From assembly GCA_047173955.1 (NCBI GenBank), contig JBCQUO010000002.1, positions 38 to 64,037 on the forward strand: a stretch of DNA of 64,000 nt, read 5' to 3'. The stretch is from Rikenellaceae bacterium. GTDB taxonomy: Bacteria; Bacteroidota; Bacteroidia; Bacteroidales; Rikenellaceae. Each line of letters begins with the position of its first letter. The stretch's first letter is position 1. Below the pieces are notes generated by a model that did not search any database, was not told the DNA's origin, and saw only the letters and a list, made by a program, of their open reading frames with translations. Below, in pieces: positions 6,205 to 58,124 of this stretch. The position numbers were made by a program, and so were the translations under genes.

Positions 6205-6840
6205 GAGGTCTGCCCTCACGCCGGGCGGGCGCACAGCAAGCTGTGATTTGTTTTCCTTGCGGTTGGGTGTGTTTGCTGTGAGCGCGGAAGTTCACCAAAG
6301 GTGAACGTATAATATGAAAATAGTGGATGCTGTCCTCGAAAGCGAGCTTTCGGTTCAGCATCCACTATTTTCATATTACCCCCTCTCGGGGGTCTCCGCG
6401 CTCGCCACACCCCCACCCAACCGAGTGGCAGCATGCGAAGGTTGCATCTTTCGGCTGATGCATCTCTCACTTATCTAAGGCTTGCTCTGTCTTACTCAGT
6501 TTTATTCAGCCCTTCTCAGTTCATTGTCATTATCCTCCTTCAGTCTCCGAACTACAATAAAAGAACTGAGATGAAATGATAAATGGAAGAAAACCTTCGT
6601 ATATAACTACCTCGCTTTGGGTGATGGGGCCGCGAGGGGGTTCCCCCATAGGGAGAATAATATAAAATGAGTGTCATGGACCGAAAGTTTACTTTCAAGG
6701 TCCATGACACTCATTTTATATTAAATTTCACGCTTTAGCGCGAAAACCTCTCGCGGCCGCAAACGGCATAAAAGCGCAAGGATAACAAATCACAGCTTGC
6801 TGTGCGCCCGCCGGCGTGAGGCAGTCCAGCCTCTGACCTT
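6205..6840. repeat. Tail-to-tail pair of composite A-D elements between convergent genes
   Basis: Cores at 6231-6249 (+) and 6787-6805 (-); palindromes 6311-6377 and 6659-6722. Confidence 0.92.
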
Positions 6841-6876
6841 AGGCCAAACGACCTTAGGCCGATATAACAGCAACCT

Positions 6877-8229
6877 TTACTCCAAAGAGAATACTCCTGT
6901 ATAGCTCTGAGGGGTTACGCTACGAAGTTCAGCTTTGACCTCGTCGGTGACATCCAACTCATTGATAAAGACTGCGATTGACTCCGCAGTGATATGAGAG
7001 TTTGTACGCGTTAATGCTTTGAGAGCTTCGTATGGAGATGGGTATCCAGTGCGGCGAAGCACCGTTTGTATTCCCTCGGCCACCACTGCCCAGTTAGCTT
7101 CGAGGTCGGCATCTATAGCTGCTTGGTTCAAGATGATTTTACCCAGACCCTTAAGCAGCGAGCGCATACCTATTAGGGCGTGCGAGATCGGCACACCGAC
7201 GTTGCGAAGCACTGTAGAGTCCGTAAGGTCGCGCTGTAGGCGTGACACGGGGAGCTTAGATGCTAGGTGCTCGTAGATTGAGTTTGCTATACCGAAGTTA
7301 CCCTCCGCGTTCTCGAAATCAATAGGGTTAACCTTGTGAGGCATAGCGCTCGACCCCACCTCGCCAGCTTTGATACGTTGCTTGAAGTACTCCATCGAGA
7401 TGTAGCTCCACATATCTCTAGAGAGGTCAATCATGATTGTGTCGATACGTTTGAGGTTATCGAAGAGGGCAGCCATCATGTCGTAGTGCTCGATTTGAGT
7501 TGTGTATTGCGATCTATCGAGCCCGAGGGTGTTGTTTACAAATGAGTTTGCCACATCGACCCAGTTGATGTGTGGGTATGCGATATTGTGGGCGTTGAAG
7601 TTACCCGTAGCTCCACCAAACTTAGCGGCATAGGGGAGTGACTTCAACATTGTGAGTTGCTTGCTAAGGCGCTCTACATATACCTGAATCTCCTTACCTA
7701 GGCGTGTGGGCGACGCTGGTTGTCCATGTGTACGAGCCAACATAGATACACCGCTCCACTCCGCTACCATCGCGCTGAGTTTTTCGATAAGCTCCTCGAG
7801 GGTAGGGATATATACATCTGCCACCGCCTCTTTGAGCGACAAGGGGATAGATGTGTTGTTGACATCTTGTGACGTGAGTCCGAAGTGGACAAACTCCTTG
7901 TACTCTTGAAGTCCCAAAAGATCCATCTTCTCTTTGATGATATACTCGATAGCCTTCACGTCGTGGTTGGTCACCGACTCGATCTCCTTGACACGCTCAG
8001 CGTCGGTGAGCGAGAAATCGGTATATAGCTTGCGCAGGTCGGCAAATGCACCTTTGTCGATTGTCGATAGCTCGGGGAGGGGTAGTTCGCACAGAGTGAT
8101 GAAATACTCCACCTCGACGCGGATACGATAGCGGATAAGTGCAGCCTCGGAGAAATAATCGCCCAATTTTTCGGTTACATTGCGGTAACGACCATCAATC
8201 GGCGAGATAGCTGTGAGTTTGTTTAGCAT
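6877..8229 (-). CDS. purB: Adenylosuccinate lyase
   Basis: 450 aa; TNHDVKA, HFGLTSQD, RTHGQPA and GSSAMPHKVNP fumarate-lyase signature. Confidence 0.98.
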   Translation of the reverse strand: MLNKLTAISPIDGRYRNVTEKLGDYFSEAALIRYRIRVEVEYFITLCELPLPELSTIDKGAFADLRKLYTDFSLTDAERVKEIESVTNHDVKAIEYIIKEKMDLLGLQEYKEFVHFGLTSQDVNNTSIPLSLKEAVADVYIPTLEELIEKLSAMVAEWSGVSMLARTHGQPASPTRLGKEIQVYVERLSKQLTMLKSLPYAAKFGGATGNFNAHNIAYPHINWVDVANSFVNNTLGLDRSQYTTQIEHYDMMAALFDNLKRIDTIMIDLSRDMWSYISMEYFKQRIKAGEVGSSAMPHKVNPIDFENAEGNFGIANSIYEHLASKLPVSRLQRDLTDSTVLRNVGVPISHALIGMRSLLKGLGKIILNQAAIDADLEANWAVVAEGIQTVLRRTGYPSPYEALKALTRTNSHITAESIAVFINELDVTDEVKAELRSVTPQSYTGVFSLE

Positions 8230-8328
8230 ATGCGTAAATATTTAGTACGTTTGATTTTGACTCCAAAAGTACGACATTTAATCGAATAAGACAATTTTTT
8301 TCTTTAAATTAGTATTGTGTAAAATTTG

Positions 8329-8960
8329 AGACTGCCTCACGCCGGCGGGCGCACAGCAAGCTGTGATTTGTCCTCCTTGCGTTTTGTGTGTTTAGGCCGC
8401 GAGGTGTTTTCGCGCTCAAGCGAGAAATTTAAAATATTTAATGGCAGACCCAGATCTCGAAAGTAAACTTTCGGCTCTGTGCCTACCATTAAACATTTAT
8501 TCCCCCATAAGGGGGAATCCCCCTCGCGGCCCCAACCCCAAATCGAGGTGGTGTCACTCACAACTCATCACTCCTAACTCTTAACTCCCACGCGTCATTG
8601 CGGCCTCCGAGCCGCAATCCCTAGCGATACATTGTGTGACCGAGGCAGAGATTGCGGCTCGGAGGCCGCAATGACGCGTGGGAGAGTTAGGAGTTAGGAG
8701 TTAAGAGTTAGGAGTTAGGAGTTAGGAGTTAGGAGTTAGGAGTTAGGAGTTAGGAGTTAGGAGTTAGGAGTTAAGAGTTAAGAGTTAGGAGGAGTTAAGT
8801 CTCTCATTCACCATTTATCATTCATCATTTATCATTCACCATTTATCATTCACCATTCATCATTCACCATTCATCATTCACCATTTACCATTCACCATTC
8901 ACCATTCATCATTAACCATTAACCATTAAAACCATTTATCATTCACCATTAATCATTATC
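8329..8960. repeat. Composite A-D element, B palindrome and two heptamer arrays
   Basis: Core 8351-8369, B 8593-8676, GGAGTTA array 8681-8800, TCACCAT-type array 8803-8960. Confidence 0.92.
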
Positions 8961-9050
8961 TTTTCAGCCCTAATTGGGGTAATTCGGGAAATTTTATGTA
9001 ATTTTGCCGCGTAACTATACGTTTGTTACTGTATCTAAAAGTGTAAAACT

Positions 9051-56884: not shown

Positions 56885-57518
56885 TCGAAGCGCCGAGATC
56901 GTGGAGCTCTTGGATGGCGGAAAGAGACTCCCCTTGGTGGAGGATTTCTACTCTATCCAAGGCGAGGGCTTCCACACAGGCAAGCCAGCCTACTTCATTC
57001 GTCTGGGTGGTTGCGACGTGGGATGCAGGTGGTGCGATGCCAAAAATACATGGAACCCCAAACTCTACCCTCCCGTCTCGATCGACCAGATCGTGGAGCG
57101 CGCCACGTCGTGTGCCGCCAAAGCGATCGTCATAACGGGTGGTGAACCCCTGCTATATCCCCTCGCGGAGTTGACCAACGCGCTGAAGAACAGGAGGCTA
57201 AAGATCTTCTTGGAGACATCGGGGTCGCAGCCCTTTAGCGGATATTTCGACTGGGTGTGCCTCTCTCCCAAACGCAACCTCCCCCCCTTGGAGGAGTCCT
57301 TCTGGCATGCCGATGAGCTCAAGGTGATAGTGGAGTCGGAGGCCGATTTCGAGTGGGCCGAGGCCAACCGCGCACATGTGGGGCGAGAGTGCATGTTGTT
57401 CCTCCAACCCGAATGGAGCGTGGCCGAAAAGATGATGCCCCAAATCGTGGAGTACGTAAAAGAGCACCCCGAGTGGAACATCTCGATCCAGACACATAAA
57501 TATATGCATATACCTTAA
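56877..57518 (+). CDS. queE: 7-carboxy-7-deazaguanine synthase
   Basis: EDFYSIQGEG, FIRLGGCDVGCRWCD, ITGGEP and SIQTHK motifs. Confidence 0.93.
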   Translation: MSSRSAEIVELLDGGKRLPLVEDFYSIQGEGFHTGKPAYFIRLGGCDVGCRWCDAKNTWNPKLYPPVSIDQIVERATSCAAKAIVITGGEPLLYPLAELTNALKNRRLKIFLETSGSQPFSGYFDWVCLSPKRNLPPLEESFWHADELKVIVESEADFEWAEANRAHVGRECMLFLQPEWSVAEKMMPQIVEYVKEHPEWNISIQTHKYMHIP

Positions 57519-57533
57519 TTACCTTAATGCCCA

Positions 57534-57815
57534 ATGTCATTCAAAGAGACCATAATTCATCGTACCATTATCGCCATCACAGCGGTAATCATGCTCTTTA
57601 TGCTCTTTGTCATAGGTCGCAATATGCTCCACGCCCTCTCCATTAGAGGCGACATCTCCGCTCTGGAATATGAGGCGGAGTACTATCAGGGCCATATTAA
57701 GACCGATAGCATCCTCCTCGAAGAGCTTAAGTTCGACGATAAACTCGAAAAGTACGCCCGCGAACATTACCGTATGCAACGCCGCGGCGAGAGGGTATAT
57801 ATTATGGGTAATTAA
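57534..57815 (+). CDS. FtsB/DivIC-family septum formation protein
   Basis: One TM helix, coiled coil, LEKYAREHYRMQRRGERVYI. Confidence 0.85.
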   Translation: MSFKETIIHRTIIAITAVIMLFMLFVIGRNMLHALSIRGDISALEYEAEYYQGHIKTDSILLEELKFDDKLEKYAREHYRMQRRGERVYIMGN

Positions 57816-57835
57816 AAGTGTTTGTTTGTGTGTGG

Positions 57836-58124
57836 TGGCTGTTTTGTGATTTTTGGTCAGAGGCTGTTTAAGAGGCTAGACTGCCCTAACGCCGGGCGGG
57901 CGCACAGCAAGCTGTGATTTGTCTTTCCTTGCGCTTTGTGGGTTGTTGAGGCCGCGACTTTAAAGTTCACCTTCAGTGAACCTCTCGCGGCCCCACCCCT
58001 CCCCAAAGCGAGGGAATCATATGCGAAGGTTTTCGTCAATTCACCATTAACTCTTAACTCTTAACTCATAACTCATAACTCATAACTCATAACTCATAAC
58101 TCATAACTCATAACTCATAACTCA
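57836..58124 (+). repeat. A element lacking the central palindrome, plus an ACTCATA array
   Basis: Core 57902-57920; ATGCGAAGGTTTTC end at about 58021-58034; array 58047-58124. Confidence 0.9.

What the first reader, a model, noticed from the sequence alone, without database searches (positions are those of the whole stretch)
6205..58035. High-copy modular intergenic element docked in fixed orientation after stop codons
Seen: the 19-mer GCACAGCAAGCTGTGATTT occurs 15 times (6231, 8351, 11034, 26668, 37274, 46584, 57902 on +; 6787, 11636, 24923, 37561, 42458, 45095, 46833, 53092 on -). It sits within a roughly 250-bp ordered chain: GGTCAGAGGCT.GACTGCC head, core, GGCCGCGA, small hairpin, long palindrome, CCCCC..GGGGG, CGCGGCCCC...AAGCGAGG, ATGCGAAGGTT tail. 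In 12 of the 15 cores, plus the head-only copies near 18968, 24335 and 42015, the head lies within about 10-100 nt of the stop codon of a co-oriented gene. Convergent gene pairs therefore enclose tail-to-tail dimers. No copy lies inside an operon or in the tuf-rpoB cluster, and no transposase is in the window. Inference: a non-autonomous BIME/BOX-like element that targets or is retained at transcript 3' ends, possibly serving termination or RNA processing.
Basis: partly seen in the sequence, partly recalled or inferred. Interest (0 to 1): 0.75.

Follow-up and report, generated by a model that had tools for sequence, protein, structure and literature searches.

The report
Structured repeat docked behind stop codons
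[quoted passage not shown] This is an unusually strict, lineage-specific variant of the mosaic intergenic repeats known from other bacteria, and no mobilising enzyme was found.

Summary
All 15 exact 19-mers lie at the stated coordinates. The genome (2.03 Mb, 108 contigs) holds 136 exact copies and 150 with up to 2 mismatches.

Genome-wide, the element's head faces the 3' end of a co-oriented gene in 131 of 139 scorable copies. A G/T-rich tandem-unit leader begins 1-2 nt after the stop codon.

The body is an outer stem, a closing stem and three hairpins, forming a four-way junction. This shape is kept across at least six species of the genus. Paired positions are only about 49% identical between species, yet 95% of pairs remain standard base pairs.

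Each species has its own palindromic "core" hairpin, and the 19-mer is the version in this species. Occupied sites differ between species, so copies are gained and lost.

I found no RAYT/IS200, TnpB, reverse transcriptase, IS110, rve or DUF559 gene in this genome, and no copy that carries an ORF.

Best reading (0.45): a non-autonomous mosaic repeat that works like BIMEs. It serves, or is tolerated only, as a transcript 3'-end module. It spreads by recombination between shared flanking repeats or by an unidentified factor. Transcription and terminator function are inferred, not shown.

A neighbouring module of the same mosaic (CGTC hairpins) belongs to the published Ssn GIY-YIG system.

The parts
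6175..6445 (+). Full copy (type II closing stem GAGCGCGG/CCGCGCTC) behind methyltransferase-like gene 5290-6174; core at 6231
6590..6876 (-). Full copy (type I) behind adenylosuccinate lyase 6877-8229(-); core at 6787; tail-to-tail with the copy at 6175-6445
8325..8548 (+). Copy without leader, at the 5' side of purB (an exception to docking); core at 8351
10976..11227 (+). Full copy (type II) behind ABC ATPase gene 10223-10975; core at 11034; heptamer array follows at 11233-11293
11456..11717 (-). Full copy (type I) behind TonB-dependent receptor 11718-14006(-); core at 11636; heptamers at 11402-11442
18942..19038 (.). Two convergent heads with GACTGCC modules fused head-to-head, bodies deleted; lies between convergent genes 18318-18941(+) and 19039-19767(-)
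24314..24525 (+). Core-less copy (head, GCC hairpin, then type II junction domain directly) behind gene 22919-24313
24860..25029 (-). Internal-deletion copy (head x3, core, GGCCGCGA joined to the ATGCGAAGGTT tail) behind recO 25030-25758(-); heptamers at 24717-24852
26640..26700 (+). Partial copy (GACTGCC hairpin, core, CCTTGCGCTTT) inserted in the divergent promoter gap upstream of xerD; absent at the same site in five related species
37215..37472 (+). Full copy (type I) behind phosphoribosyltransferase gene 36585-37214; core at 37274; the orthologous site in species G062 is also occupied, by that species' own subfamily
37473..37632 (-). Copy behind DUF3467 gene 37633-37965(-); core at 37561; joined tail-to-tail to the copy at 37215-37472
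41994..42075 (+). Deletion copy (head, GCC...GCC joined directly to CAAAGCGAAG and the tail) behind gene 41283-41993
42385..42522 (-). Truncated copy (through the first small hairpin) behind gene 42523-44889(-); core at 42458; the orthologous site in G062 is empty
45047..45148 (-). Internal-deletion copy behind ogt-like gene 45149-45622(-); the gene's last codons and TGA stop lie inside head-like units; core at 45095
46529..46780 (+). Full copy behind ThuA-like gene 45689-46528; core at 46584; orthologous site in G062 also occupied
46826..46890 (-). Orphan inverted 5' module (core at 46833) not docked to a gene; in G062 the matching copy is docked to a convergent gene that lies elsewhere in this genome
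52908..53175 (-). Full copy (type I) placed just after the canonical hairpin-plus-T8 terminator of a small ferredoxin-like gene (about 53238-53405, -); core at 53092; G062 has the same gene-terminator-element order
57519..58040 (+). Copy lacking the long and CCCCC hairpins, behind gene 56877-57518; core at 57902; heptamer array at 58048-58125; the orthologous site in G017 is empty

Best explanation
The window holds 15 copies (plus 3 core-less remnants) of a non-coding, non-autonomous, mosaic repeat family restricted to a few species of one Bacteroidota genus.

A copy has these parts, in order:
(1) A G/T-rich leader of 1-9 degenerate units of about 12 nt (TTTTAAGAGGCT or TTGGTCAGAGGCY) that starts at the stop codon.
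(2) A conserved 5' module: the small hairpin ACTGCC-loop-GGC(G)GGC, followed by a species-specific palindromic hairpin. In this species that hairpin is the invariant 19-mer.
(3) A domain of conserved shape but free sequence: an outer stem, a closing stem and three hairpins.
(4) Heptamer arrays and other repeat modules.

Proposed working: the element is read through as the 3' untranslated end of the upstream gene. Its hairpin cluster then acts as that transcript's end structure, either a terminator or a block to 3' exonucleases. Because that role is directional, and because such a structure is harmful in promoters and inside operons, copies survive only behind co-oriented stop codons.

New copies arise by copy-and-paste among gene ends. 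The most likely route is recombination or gene conversion through the simple repeats that flank the element on both sides. The alternative is a trans-acting enzyme missing from this assembly.

Shown: anatomy, docking, orientation, conserved fold, subfamilies, and gain and loss between species. Inferred: transcription, the terminator or stabiliser role, and the way of spreading.
For: Docking and orientation hold genome-wide. The base composition switches to G/T-rich at +1/+2 after the stop in 127 bearing genes, against 1455 others.

The fold is supported. Single-copy fold energies have z-scores of -7.8 and -9.1. 57 distinct long hairpins are 94% Watson-Crick. 17 of 46 pairs are compensated within the window. 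Across 18 copies from 6 species, 95% of cells are standard pairs against about 45% when the partner column is slid, and 40 of 46 pairs have changes on both sides, at 49% identity in the paired columns.

Related species carry the same architecture with other core hairpins (CCAAGC.AA.GCTTGG, GGTGCG.AGC.CGCAC, TGCAAGC.TA.GCTTGCA, CCAGGC.AA.GCCTGG), likewise behind stop codons.

A terminator-like role has three supports. In G062 the 5' module closes as ACTGCC...GGCAGT followed by a T-run. Where G062 has the element, this genome has an ordinary hairpin-plus-T terminator at the same place. Elsewhere the element sits directly after a canonical terminator in both species.

Turnover is visible. None of 7 G017-occupied sites and 3-4 of 12 G062-occupied sites are occupied here. 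The xerD-promoter and 42458 copies are specific to this species.

Recombination-type spread has three supports. Stem blocks are shuffled combinatorially among copies. There are many internal-deletion and inverted-interior copies. Orthologous copies resemble their own genome's subfamily rather than each other.

No transposase partner was found, and no ORF-bearing copy.
Against: No direct evidence of transcription or of termination. RNA-run contigs cover the elements, but coverage is as even as in the DNA runs, so DNA carry-over cannot be excluded.

In this species the 5' module is not an outstandingly stable fold (z about 0) and lacks a clear U-tract.

Retention by selection alone does not easily explain why the leader begins within 1-2 nt of the stop codon.

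The 19-mer is exact in 136 of 150 copies while the junction domains average 70% identity. This points to sequence-specific recognition by some factor, which this explanation does not identify.

In this species mismatches favour the opposite strand (A.C 43 against G.T 12). This was not reproduced in G017 or G062.

The assembly is a 92%-complete metagenome bin, so a multi-copy enzyme gene could be missing.
Confidence: 0.45

Rival explanations
1. It is a selfish non-autonomous transposable element (MITE-, REPIN- or PATE-like) with real target specificity for the first bases behind a stop codon or terminator. An enzyme not present in this assembly mobilises it in trans by recognising the conserved ACTGCC hairpin and the core hairpin. 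Any RNA-level effect is incidental.
For: About 150 copies, with coexisting subfamilies whose copy numbers differ between species (fam1 150 and fam3 about 12 here; fam3 is dominant in G062). Insertions specific to one species. An invariant 19-mer and an ACTGCC...GGC motif conserved across species fit a protein recognition site. The leader starts within 1-2 nt of the stop. TGA-ending genes are under-represented among bearers (4 of 127 against 132 of 1455, p 0.02), which hints that TAA/TAG matters at the junction. 25 of 150 cores lie within 500 nt of contig ends, so repeats break the assembly and could hide a partner gene.
Against: No terminal inverted repeats, and no definable target-site duplication. 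No Y1 HUH, TnpB, IS110, rve or reverse transcriptase gene. The single DDE gene and the five tyrosine recombinases are not linked to copies. No ORF-bearing copy among 150. Dead copies of a selfish element should have decayed cores, yet 136 of 150 are exact while the bodies have diverged to about 70% identity.
Confidence: 0.3
2. It is a host-level sequence tag. The invariant 5' module is the binding or cleavage site of a dedicated host protein or RNA (for example an RNase or an RNA-binding protein) that acts on the 3' ends of about 9% of the genes. Each copy is kept by selection in place.
For: The core is exact in 91% of copies while the bodies have diverged. The 5' module is far more conserved than the junction domain, both within and between species. 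The core hairpin covaries between species, as if co-evolving with a partner.
Against: Bearing genes in the window share no functional theme: purB, recO, ogt, a TonB receptor, an ABC ATPase and others. Orthologous genes in sister species often lack the element, which is odd for a regulon. No candidate factor was identified.
Confidence: 0.15
3. It acts at the DNA level. The palindromes extrude as hairpins or cruciforms, or bind a recombinase or nucleoid protein (a dif/Xer-like or attC-like site). Hairpin-templated repair keeps the arms perfectly complementary without any RNA role.
For: In G062 the stems are perfect although their middle segments differ completely between copies. Templated correction of quasi-palindromes explains this more easily than stepwise compensation (own knowledge). 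One copy has its interior inverted between the closing-stem repeats. GCCTAAC in some copies fits the attC R'' consensus RYYYAAC (own knowledge).
Against: Orientation follows the neighbouring gene, in both directions at convergent pairs. A DNA-only role does not predict this. There is no GTTRRRY partner box, no cassette arrays and no integron integrase context. The xerD association is not conserved.
Confidence: 0.07
4. It is a SINE-like retroelement. The active RNA is the opposite strand, ending in an A/C-rich simple-repeat tail (the complement of the leader). Reverse transcription is primed on a nick right after TAA/TAG.
For: The leader read on the other strand is a variable-length A/C-rich tandem tail abutting the stop codon. 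In this species the opposite strand folds better (43 copies against 14).
Against: No reverse transcriptase in this genome. Across the genus, RT genes occur in 50 of 150 genomes without tracking the element. The strand bias is absent in G017 and G062.
Confidence: 0.03

Closest known systems
BIMEs / REP sequences of Enterobacteria (own knowledge; REP overview in PMC3733652)
   Same: High-copy, non-coding, mosaic of palindromic and other short modules in fixed orders. Mostly downstream of genes and between convergent genes. Thought to be transcribed and to affect termination and mRNA stability. Families are species-specific.
   Different: REP units are hairpins of 20-40 bp in alternating orientation, carry a GTAG or CGTC tag and have a RAYT partner. 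Here the unit is about 250 nt with a four-way junction and no tag. It is docked at +1/+2 of the stop codon with 94% co-orientation, and no RAYT was found.
ERIC/IRU and Correia-type miniature elements (own knowledge)
   Same: Structured intergenic elements of 100-150 nt that are co-transcribed with neighbouring genes. Their orientation influences the fate of the mRNA.
   Different: Those elements have terminal inverted repeats and TA target duplications, and they insert in either orientation. No inverted ends or duplications are seen here.
Bacterial class C (IIC) group II introns (own knowledge: Robart, Seo and Zimmerly 2007)
   Same: They insert just after gene-end terminator hairpins, in the orientation of the terminated gene.
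   Different: They need intron domains V/VI and usually an RT. Rfam finds no intron here and the genome has no RT. The element is also far too short.
Integron attC sites (own knowledge)
   Same: An imperfect palindrome directly behind an ORF and co-oriented with it. Structure is conserved rather than sequence.
   Different: attC sites lie in cassette arrays next to intI and have paired R''/R' boxes. Here the copies are dispersed behind housekeeping genes in both directions, and there is no R' box.
Ssn GIY-YIG single-strand nucleases with SRM/NTS hairpin repeats (PMC11893778); CGTC-tagged REPs (PMC3733652)
   Same: This applies to a neighbouring module of the same mosaic. There are 211 CGTCATTGCGG...CCGCAAT hairpins, 64 of them within 700 nt downstream of a 19-mer core. 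A 94-aa GIY-YIG gene is bracketed by them. Its homologues in G067 and G017 are bracketed by their own genome's hairpin type.
   Different: The 19-mer / four-way-junction element carries no CGTCAT-type hairpin. Nothing links it to this nuclease.
Heptamer tandem repeats (STRR-like; TAACTGA repeats, PMC4679880)
   Same: Arrays of AACTCCT, AATGGTG and AACTCAT follow the element's 3' end. Such intergenic heptamer arrays are reported in some Bacteroidetes, Cyanobacteria and Beggiatoaceae.
   Different: They form the trailing flank, not the element itself. Their function is unknown there too.

Membership tests
REP / REPIN-RAYT | Cognate RAYT (Y1 HUH, PF01797) gene, usually flanked by the repeats | tested here: not met
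   No PF01797 match in the own genome at E<=0.01, while the control genomes do match. The assembly is 92% complete.
REP / REPIN-RAYT | Short (20-40 bp) hairpin with a GTAG or CGTC tag at one end | tested here: not met
   Neither the 5' module nor the junction hairpins carry such tags. Only the separate CGTCATTGCGG module does.
MITE | Terminal inverted repeats | tested here: not met
   The head (GGTCAGAGGCT/GACTGCC) and the tail (AAGCGAGG, ATGCGAAGGTT, heptamers) are not complementary.
MITE | Target-site duplication | tested here: inconclusive
   The 3' boundary is ill-defined, and intergenic DNA of relatives is too diverged to align empty against filled sites base by base.
IS200/IS605-derived elements (PATE, omega-RNA ends) | TnpA (Y1) and/or TnpB in the genome; subterminal hairpins at both ends | tested here: not met
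   PF01797 and PF07282 are both absent. No HEARO or omega-type Rfam match.
Group IIC intron | Intron domain V/VI RNA and an RT ORF | tested here: not met
   No Rfam intron match. No RVT_1 in the genome.
Integron attC | R''/L''...L'/R' boxes, cassette arrays, a nearby intI | tested here: not met
   Only a partial RYYYAAC-like match, with no GTTRRRY partner. Copies are dispersed on 60+ contigs behind housekeeping genes. The recombinase in the window is XerD.
Any curated Rfam family (including Flavo-1 and the Bacteroidales motifs) | Covariance-model match | tested here: not met
   Only 4 tRNAs reach the gathering score in the window. In E-value mode only spurious miRNA-hairpin matches appear.
Intrinsic (Rho-independent) terminator | GC-rich hairpin followed by a U-tract, at the end of a transcription unit | tested here: inconclusive
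   The G062-type 5' module meets it (ACTGCC...GGCAGT followed by TTTT). This genome's type is followed only by AUUUGUYYUYC. The position at unit ends is met. Function was not tested.
BIME-like mosaic intergenic repeat (a functional class, not a sequence family) | Ordered combinations of several repeat modules, extragenic, enriched at 3' ends and in convergent gaps | tested here: met
   Module strings. 60 of 169 convergent, 39 of 947 same-direction and 2 of 187 divergent gaps are occupied.
Ssn / SRM system (for the neighbouring CGTC module only) | Small single-domain GIY-YIG gene flanked on both sides by its genome's own CGTCAT-type hairpin repeats | tested here: met
   Seen at G000:C41:10474-10755 and at its homologues in G067, G017 and G063. 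The family is described in PMC11893778.

The most novel reading that the evidence does not exclude
The element is the visible half of an undescribed system. A factor not yet identified, protein or RNA, recognises the ACTGCC hairpin plus the species-specific core hairpin. That factor either inserts the element precisely at the first bases behind TAA/TAG stop codons, or acts on every tagged transcript end. This would make it a genome-wide 3'-end tagging or targeting mechanism with its own co-evolving specificity.
Probability: 0.2. Interest if true: 0.8.

Novelty: new variant of a known kind. Interest (0 to 1): 0.55.

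Why it matters
Mosaic intergenic repeats (REP, BIME, ERIC, Correia) are well studied in Proteobacteria. Much less is known in Bacteroidota, and hardly any family shows such a strict positional rule.

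In this genome one gene in about ten ends in the same composite structure. It begins at the base after the stop codon and has a fold that survives near-complete sequence turnover between sister species.

If the structure terminates or protects transcripts, it shows how a compact gut genome can standardise its 3' ends with a spreading module. If instead a dedicated enzyme places it, its target choice (directly behind stop codons, in sense orientation) would be a new kind of safe-site selection.

The family also matters practically. It breaks short-read assemblies: 25 of 150 cores lie at contig ends. It could also cause rearrangements between copies.

Tried and rejected
1. Searches for a partner enzyme in the own genome. 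PF01797, PF07282, PF00078, PF01548, PF00665 and PF04480 gave nothing. PF01609 gave one gene on contig C41 with no element nearby. PF00589 gave five genes.

2. XerD as partner. A partial copy sits in its promoter, but five related species have the same xerD neighbourhood without it. Rejected.

3. Retroelement idea. No RT here, and RT presence in the genus does not track the element. The opposite-strand folding bias seen here is not reproduced in G017 or G062. I therefore make no strand call from G.U pairs.

4. The variable mid-stem segments as copies of the local target. Longest matches to the flanks equal those of shuffled controls. Rejected.

5. An autonomous copy of the form core, then ORF, then domain. 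All 31 domain-less cores are deletion variants or lie at contig ends.

6. The exact 19-mer in 185,579 species genomes. Only three chance singletons.

7. A loose 5'-module pattern in metagenome contigs. Only single chance matches, and the pattern was too permissive.

8. Plasmid and phage collections. No similarity.

9. Rfam. No family.

10. Laying sequencing runs. Only assembled contigs were available. They break at the repeats, show no clean empty alleles, and the 'RNA' run is covered as evenly as DNA. No conclusion on expression or polymorphism.

11. GIY-YIG link. It is real for the CGTC hairpins, but it is already published as the Ssn system and is not tied to the 19-mer element.

Full report
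OBSERVATION. None is expected by chance. The window is C19:38-64037 of a 2.03-Mb assembly in 108 contigs, 92% complete. That genome holds 136 exact copies and 150 with up to two mismatches, 75 on each strand. Among 185,579 species genomes the exact word is otherwise found only as three chance singletons.

ANATOMY. I aligned the 15 window copies and 131 genome copies. They share this order:
- A leader of 1-9 degenerate tandem units, such as TTTTAAGAGGCT, GTGTTTAGAGGCT or TTGGTCAGAGGCY.
- A small hairpin, (G)ACTGCC(C)-7 nt-GGC(G)GGC, in three variants whose two sides change together.
- The core hairpin CACAG-CAAG-CUGUG followed by AUUUGU.
- The 5' half of an outer stem, CCTTGCGCTTT.
- A closing stem, GGCCGCGA...TCGCGGCC (type I) or GYGCGCGG...CCGCGCKC (type II). 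It encloses three hairpins:
  - one of two alternative small hairpins;
  - a hairpin of about 65 nt with a conserved tip (GAAAGTAAACTTTC) and a variable middle;
  - CCCCC-loop-GGGGG.
- The 3' half of the outer stem, AAAGCGAGG. In type II copies it is CAACCGAG, which covaries with GGTTG on the 5' side.
- Then either ATGCGAAGGTT or heptamer arrays (AATGGTG, AACTCCT, AACTCAT), followed by further repeat modules.

Single copies fold far better than shuffled sequence, with z-scores of -7.8 and -9.1. Many copies are internal-deletion variants: core-less at 24335, body-less at 42015, two heads fused at 18968. One copy has its interior inverted. Of 145 junction-domain loci in the genome, 117 have a core within 150 nt, so the parts form one composite element.

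POSITION. I made crude ORF calls (1611 ORFs, 87% coding). With these, the head side faces the 3' end of a co-oriented gene in 131 of 139 scorable copies (p 9e-30). The median distance from stop to core is 65 nt.

Because orientation is trivially 'correct' in convergent gaps, I split the data by gap type:
- Same-direction gaps hold 35 sense and 6 antisense copies (p 5e-6).
- In convergent gaps the head is nearer its own gene's stop in 70 of 74 copies (median 64 against 381 nt; p 1e-16).
- 60 of 169 convergent gaps are occupied, 14 of them by tail-to-tail pairs.
- 39 of 947 same-direction gaps are occupied.
- 2 of 187 divergent gaps are occupied.

The base composition of bearing genes turns G/T-rich at the first or second base after the stop codon (A about 14% against about 35% in other genes). 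So the leader starts at the stop. In a few genes the stop codon, or the last codons, lie inside a head unit. For most genes, however, the protein aligns with its orthologue to the last residue. The native stop is therefore kept. TGA-ending genes are under-represented among bearers (4 of 127 against 132 of 1455, p 0.02).

Bearing genes in the window are unrelated housekeeping genes: purB, recO, ogt-like, a TonB receptor, an ABC ATPase, a phosphoribosyltransferase, DUF3467, ThuA-like and others.

RELATIVES. The exact 19-mer is absent from 24, and later 149, other genomes of the genus. The family is not.
- A search for the conserved ACTGCC...CCGG(N)CGGGC motif finds 33 copies in G017 and 23 in G062.
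- A covariance model built only from window copies finds full-length junction domains in G017, G062, G165 and G067, and partial ones in G014. That tool scores at most 18 candidates per genome.

In these species the element again follows stop codons at 8-40 nt, or follows a canonical terminator. The 5' hairpin is conserved in sequence. The core hairpin is replaced by another palindrome: CCAAGC.AA.GCTTGG, with compensated variants, in G017; GGTGCG.AGC.CGCAC in G062; TGCAAGC.TA.GCTTGCA in G165; CCAGGC.AA.GCCTGG in G067.

I took 18 sense-strand copies from six species, aligned to the model. 95% of pair cells are standard pairs, against 42-47% when the partner column is slid. 40 of 46 pairs show changes on both sides. 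Identity at paired columns between this species and the others is 49%. The caveat is that this alignment was fitted to the model.

This genome also holds about 12 stop-docked copies with the G062-type core. It holds a further 16 copies of another 5'-module type (GCGGAGAGATCTCCGC) that are not stop-docked. Subfamilies therefore coexist, at copy numbers that differ between species.

TURNOVER.
- Of 7 G017-occupied gene ends with an orthologue here, none is occupied here.
- Of about 12 G062-occupied ends, 3-4 are occupied here.
- The gene ends at 42523 and 57518 are occupied here but empty in G062 and G017 respectively.
- The partial copy upstream of xerD is absent from the same, otherwise conserved, gap in five species.
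- At three shared sites (behind the genes ending at 37214 and 46528, and behind the ferredoxin-like gene) both species carry an element. Each copy looks like its own genome's subfamily.
- Where G062 has the element behind one orthologue, this genome has an ordinary hairpin-plus-T terminator.

WHAT MOVES IT. I found no candidate.
- The genome has no Y1 HUH transposase, TnpB, reverse transcriptase, IS110-type, rve or DUF559 gene.
- It has one DDE gene on a contig without elements, and five tyrosine recombinases, among them XerD in the window.
- None of the 31 cores that lack a junction domain is followed by an ORF and then a domain.
- Reverse transcriptases occur in 50 of 150 genomes of the genus without tracking the family.
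- The element has no inverted ends. I could not define a target duplication.

Recombination among copies is suggested by three findings. Stem blocks are reshuffled combinatorially: 38 distinct 13-mers are built from a few alternative sub-blocks, and they are unrelated to the local flanks. Deletion and inversion variants are common. And simple repeats flank the element on both sides, head units on the left and heptamer arrays on the right.

UNEXPLAINED POINTS.
1. The 19-mer is exact in 91% of copies, while junction domains average 70% identity (range 44-98%). This calls for sequence-specific constraint or targeted homogenisation.
2. In this species stem mismatches are mostly A.C on the sense strand (43 against 12 G.T), and the opposite strand folds better in 43 of 57 domains. 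The bias is not seen in G017 or G062. I read it as inherited variants and make no strand call.
3. In G062 the stems are perfect, although their middle 8-9 bp differ completely between copies. This is hard to reach by stepwise compensation.

EXPRESSION. Two DNA and two 'RNA' runs from one fish-gut study hold the stretch, but only as assembled contigs. RNA-run contigs run from genes into elements. However, the coverage of all genes is as even as in the DNA runs. Neither transcription nor transcript ends can be read from this.

NEIGHBOURING MODULE.
- A 94-aa stand-alone GIY-YIG gene (C41:10474-10755) is bracketed by CGTCATTGCGG...CCGCAAT hairpins.
- The genome has 211 such hairpins, 64 of them within 700 nt downstream of a 19-mer core.
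- Its homologues in G067, G017 and G063 are bracketed by their own genome's hairpin type. In G017 that type has 101 copies, and none occurs here.
- This looked new against a 2013 survey stating that CGTC-tagged REPs lack a dedicated enzyme (PMC3733652). Small GIY-YIG single-strand nucleases flanked by NTS/SRM hairpins of the form CGTCATT-stem-loop-stem-AATC were described in 2025 (PMC11893778).

So this is a further example of a known system. It concerns a different module of the mosaic, and nothing ties it to the 19-mer element.

VERDICT. The element is a lineage-specific, structure-conserved, non-autonomous mosaic repeat. It works most like BIME/REP-type 3'-end elements, but it fails the membership tests of REP-RAYT, MITE, IS200/605 derivatives, group IIC introns, attC sites and all Rfam families. 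Its strict docking at the stop codon, its four-way-junction body and its invariant, species-specific core make it a new variant of a known kind. Function and mode of spread remain inferred.

Noticed in passing
G000:C41:10214-10872 (outside the window); window examples of the hairpin at about 8600-8700, 11340-11400 and 26713-26745: A 94-aa GIY-YIG gene is bracketed by CGTCATTGCGG...CCGCAAT hairpins (211 in the genome). Homologues in G067, G017 and G063 are bracketed by their own species' hairpin type. This matches the published Ssn nuclease / SRM repeat system (PMC11893778) and the CGTC-tagged REPs of PMC3733652.
   Followed up: yes
window 58-196, 8684-8957, 11233-11293, 24717-24852, 27740-27944, 58048-58125: Long heptamer tandem arrays (AACTCCT, AATGGTG, GAGTTAG, TAACTCA) follow the element or fill gaps, often as inverted array pairs. 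This class is known but unexplained in some Bacteroidetes, Cyanobacteria and Beggiatoaceae (PMC4679880).
   Followed up: partly
window 2688-2739(-), 2953-3004(-), 4938-4989(-): A second 5'-module type, ACTGCCC-TACGC-GGGC...GCGGAGAGATCTCCGC-GGATCC-AAGAAAAAC..GTTTTTCT, has 16 genome copies. Unlike the 19-mer type it is not docked to stop codons (7 antisense, 5 sense, distances 220-690 nt).
   Followed up: partly
G000:C93:19319-19420 (outside the window): Behind one gene, a lone pair of inverted head units (TTAGGTCAGAGGCT...AGCCTCTGACCTAA) forms a 14-bp hairpin with no element body. It is either a footprint or a minimal form.
   Followed up: no
window 26566-26845: The gap between xerD and its divergent neighbour is 255 nt here, against about 70-90 nt in five related species. 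The extra DNA is a partial element plus a CGTC hairpin, placed upstream of a TAcctTTG promoter box.
   Followed up: yes
window 46826-46890 and G000:C42:172-780: In G062 a convergent gene is docked to the inverted partner copy at this locus. In this genome that gene lies on another contig with its own copy, leaving an orphan 5' module here. This could be a rearrangement or assembly break at the repeat.
   Followed up: partly
window 52292-52478: A 48-nt (96-nt) tandem repeat lies inside the coding region of gene 51533-52738, giving a repeated P/E/R/Q-rich protein segment.
   Followed up: no
G000 contigs C7, C12, C30, C47, C48, C56, C62, C92, C108 ends and four internal sites: Another palindromic module (GTTTTGGATAAGAAAAAT...ATTTTTCTTATCCAAAAC, preceded by TATCTCGGCTTTTTCAAAGCCGATAACC) occurs 13 times, mostly at contig ends and directly upstream of head units.
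   Followed up: partly
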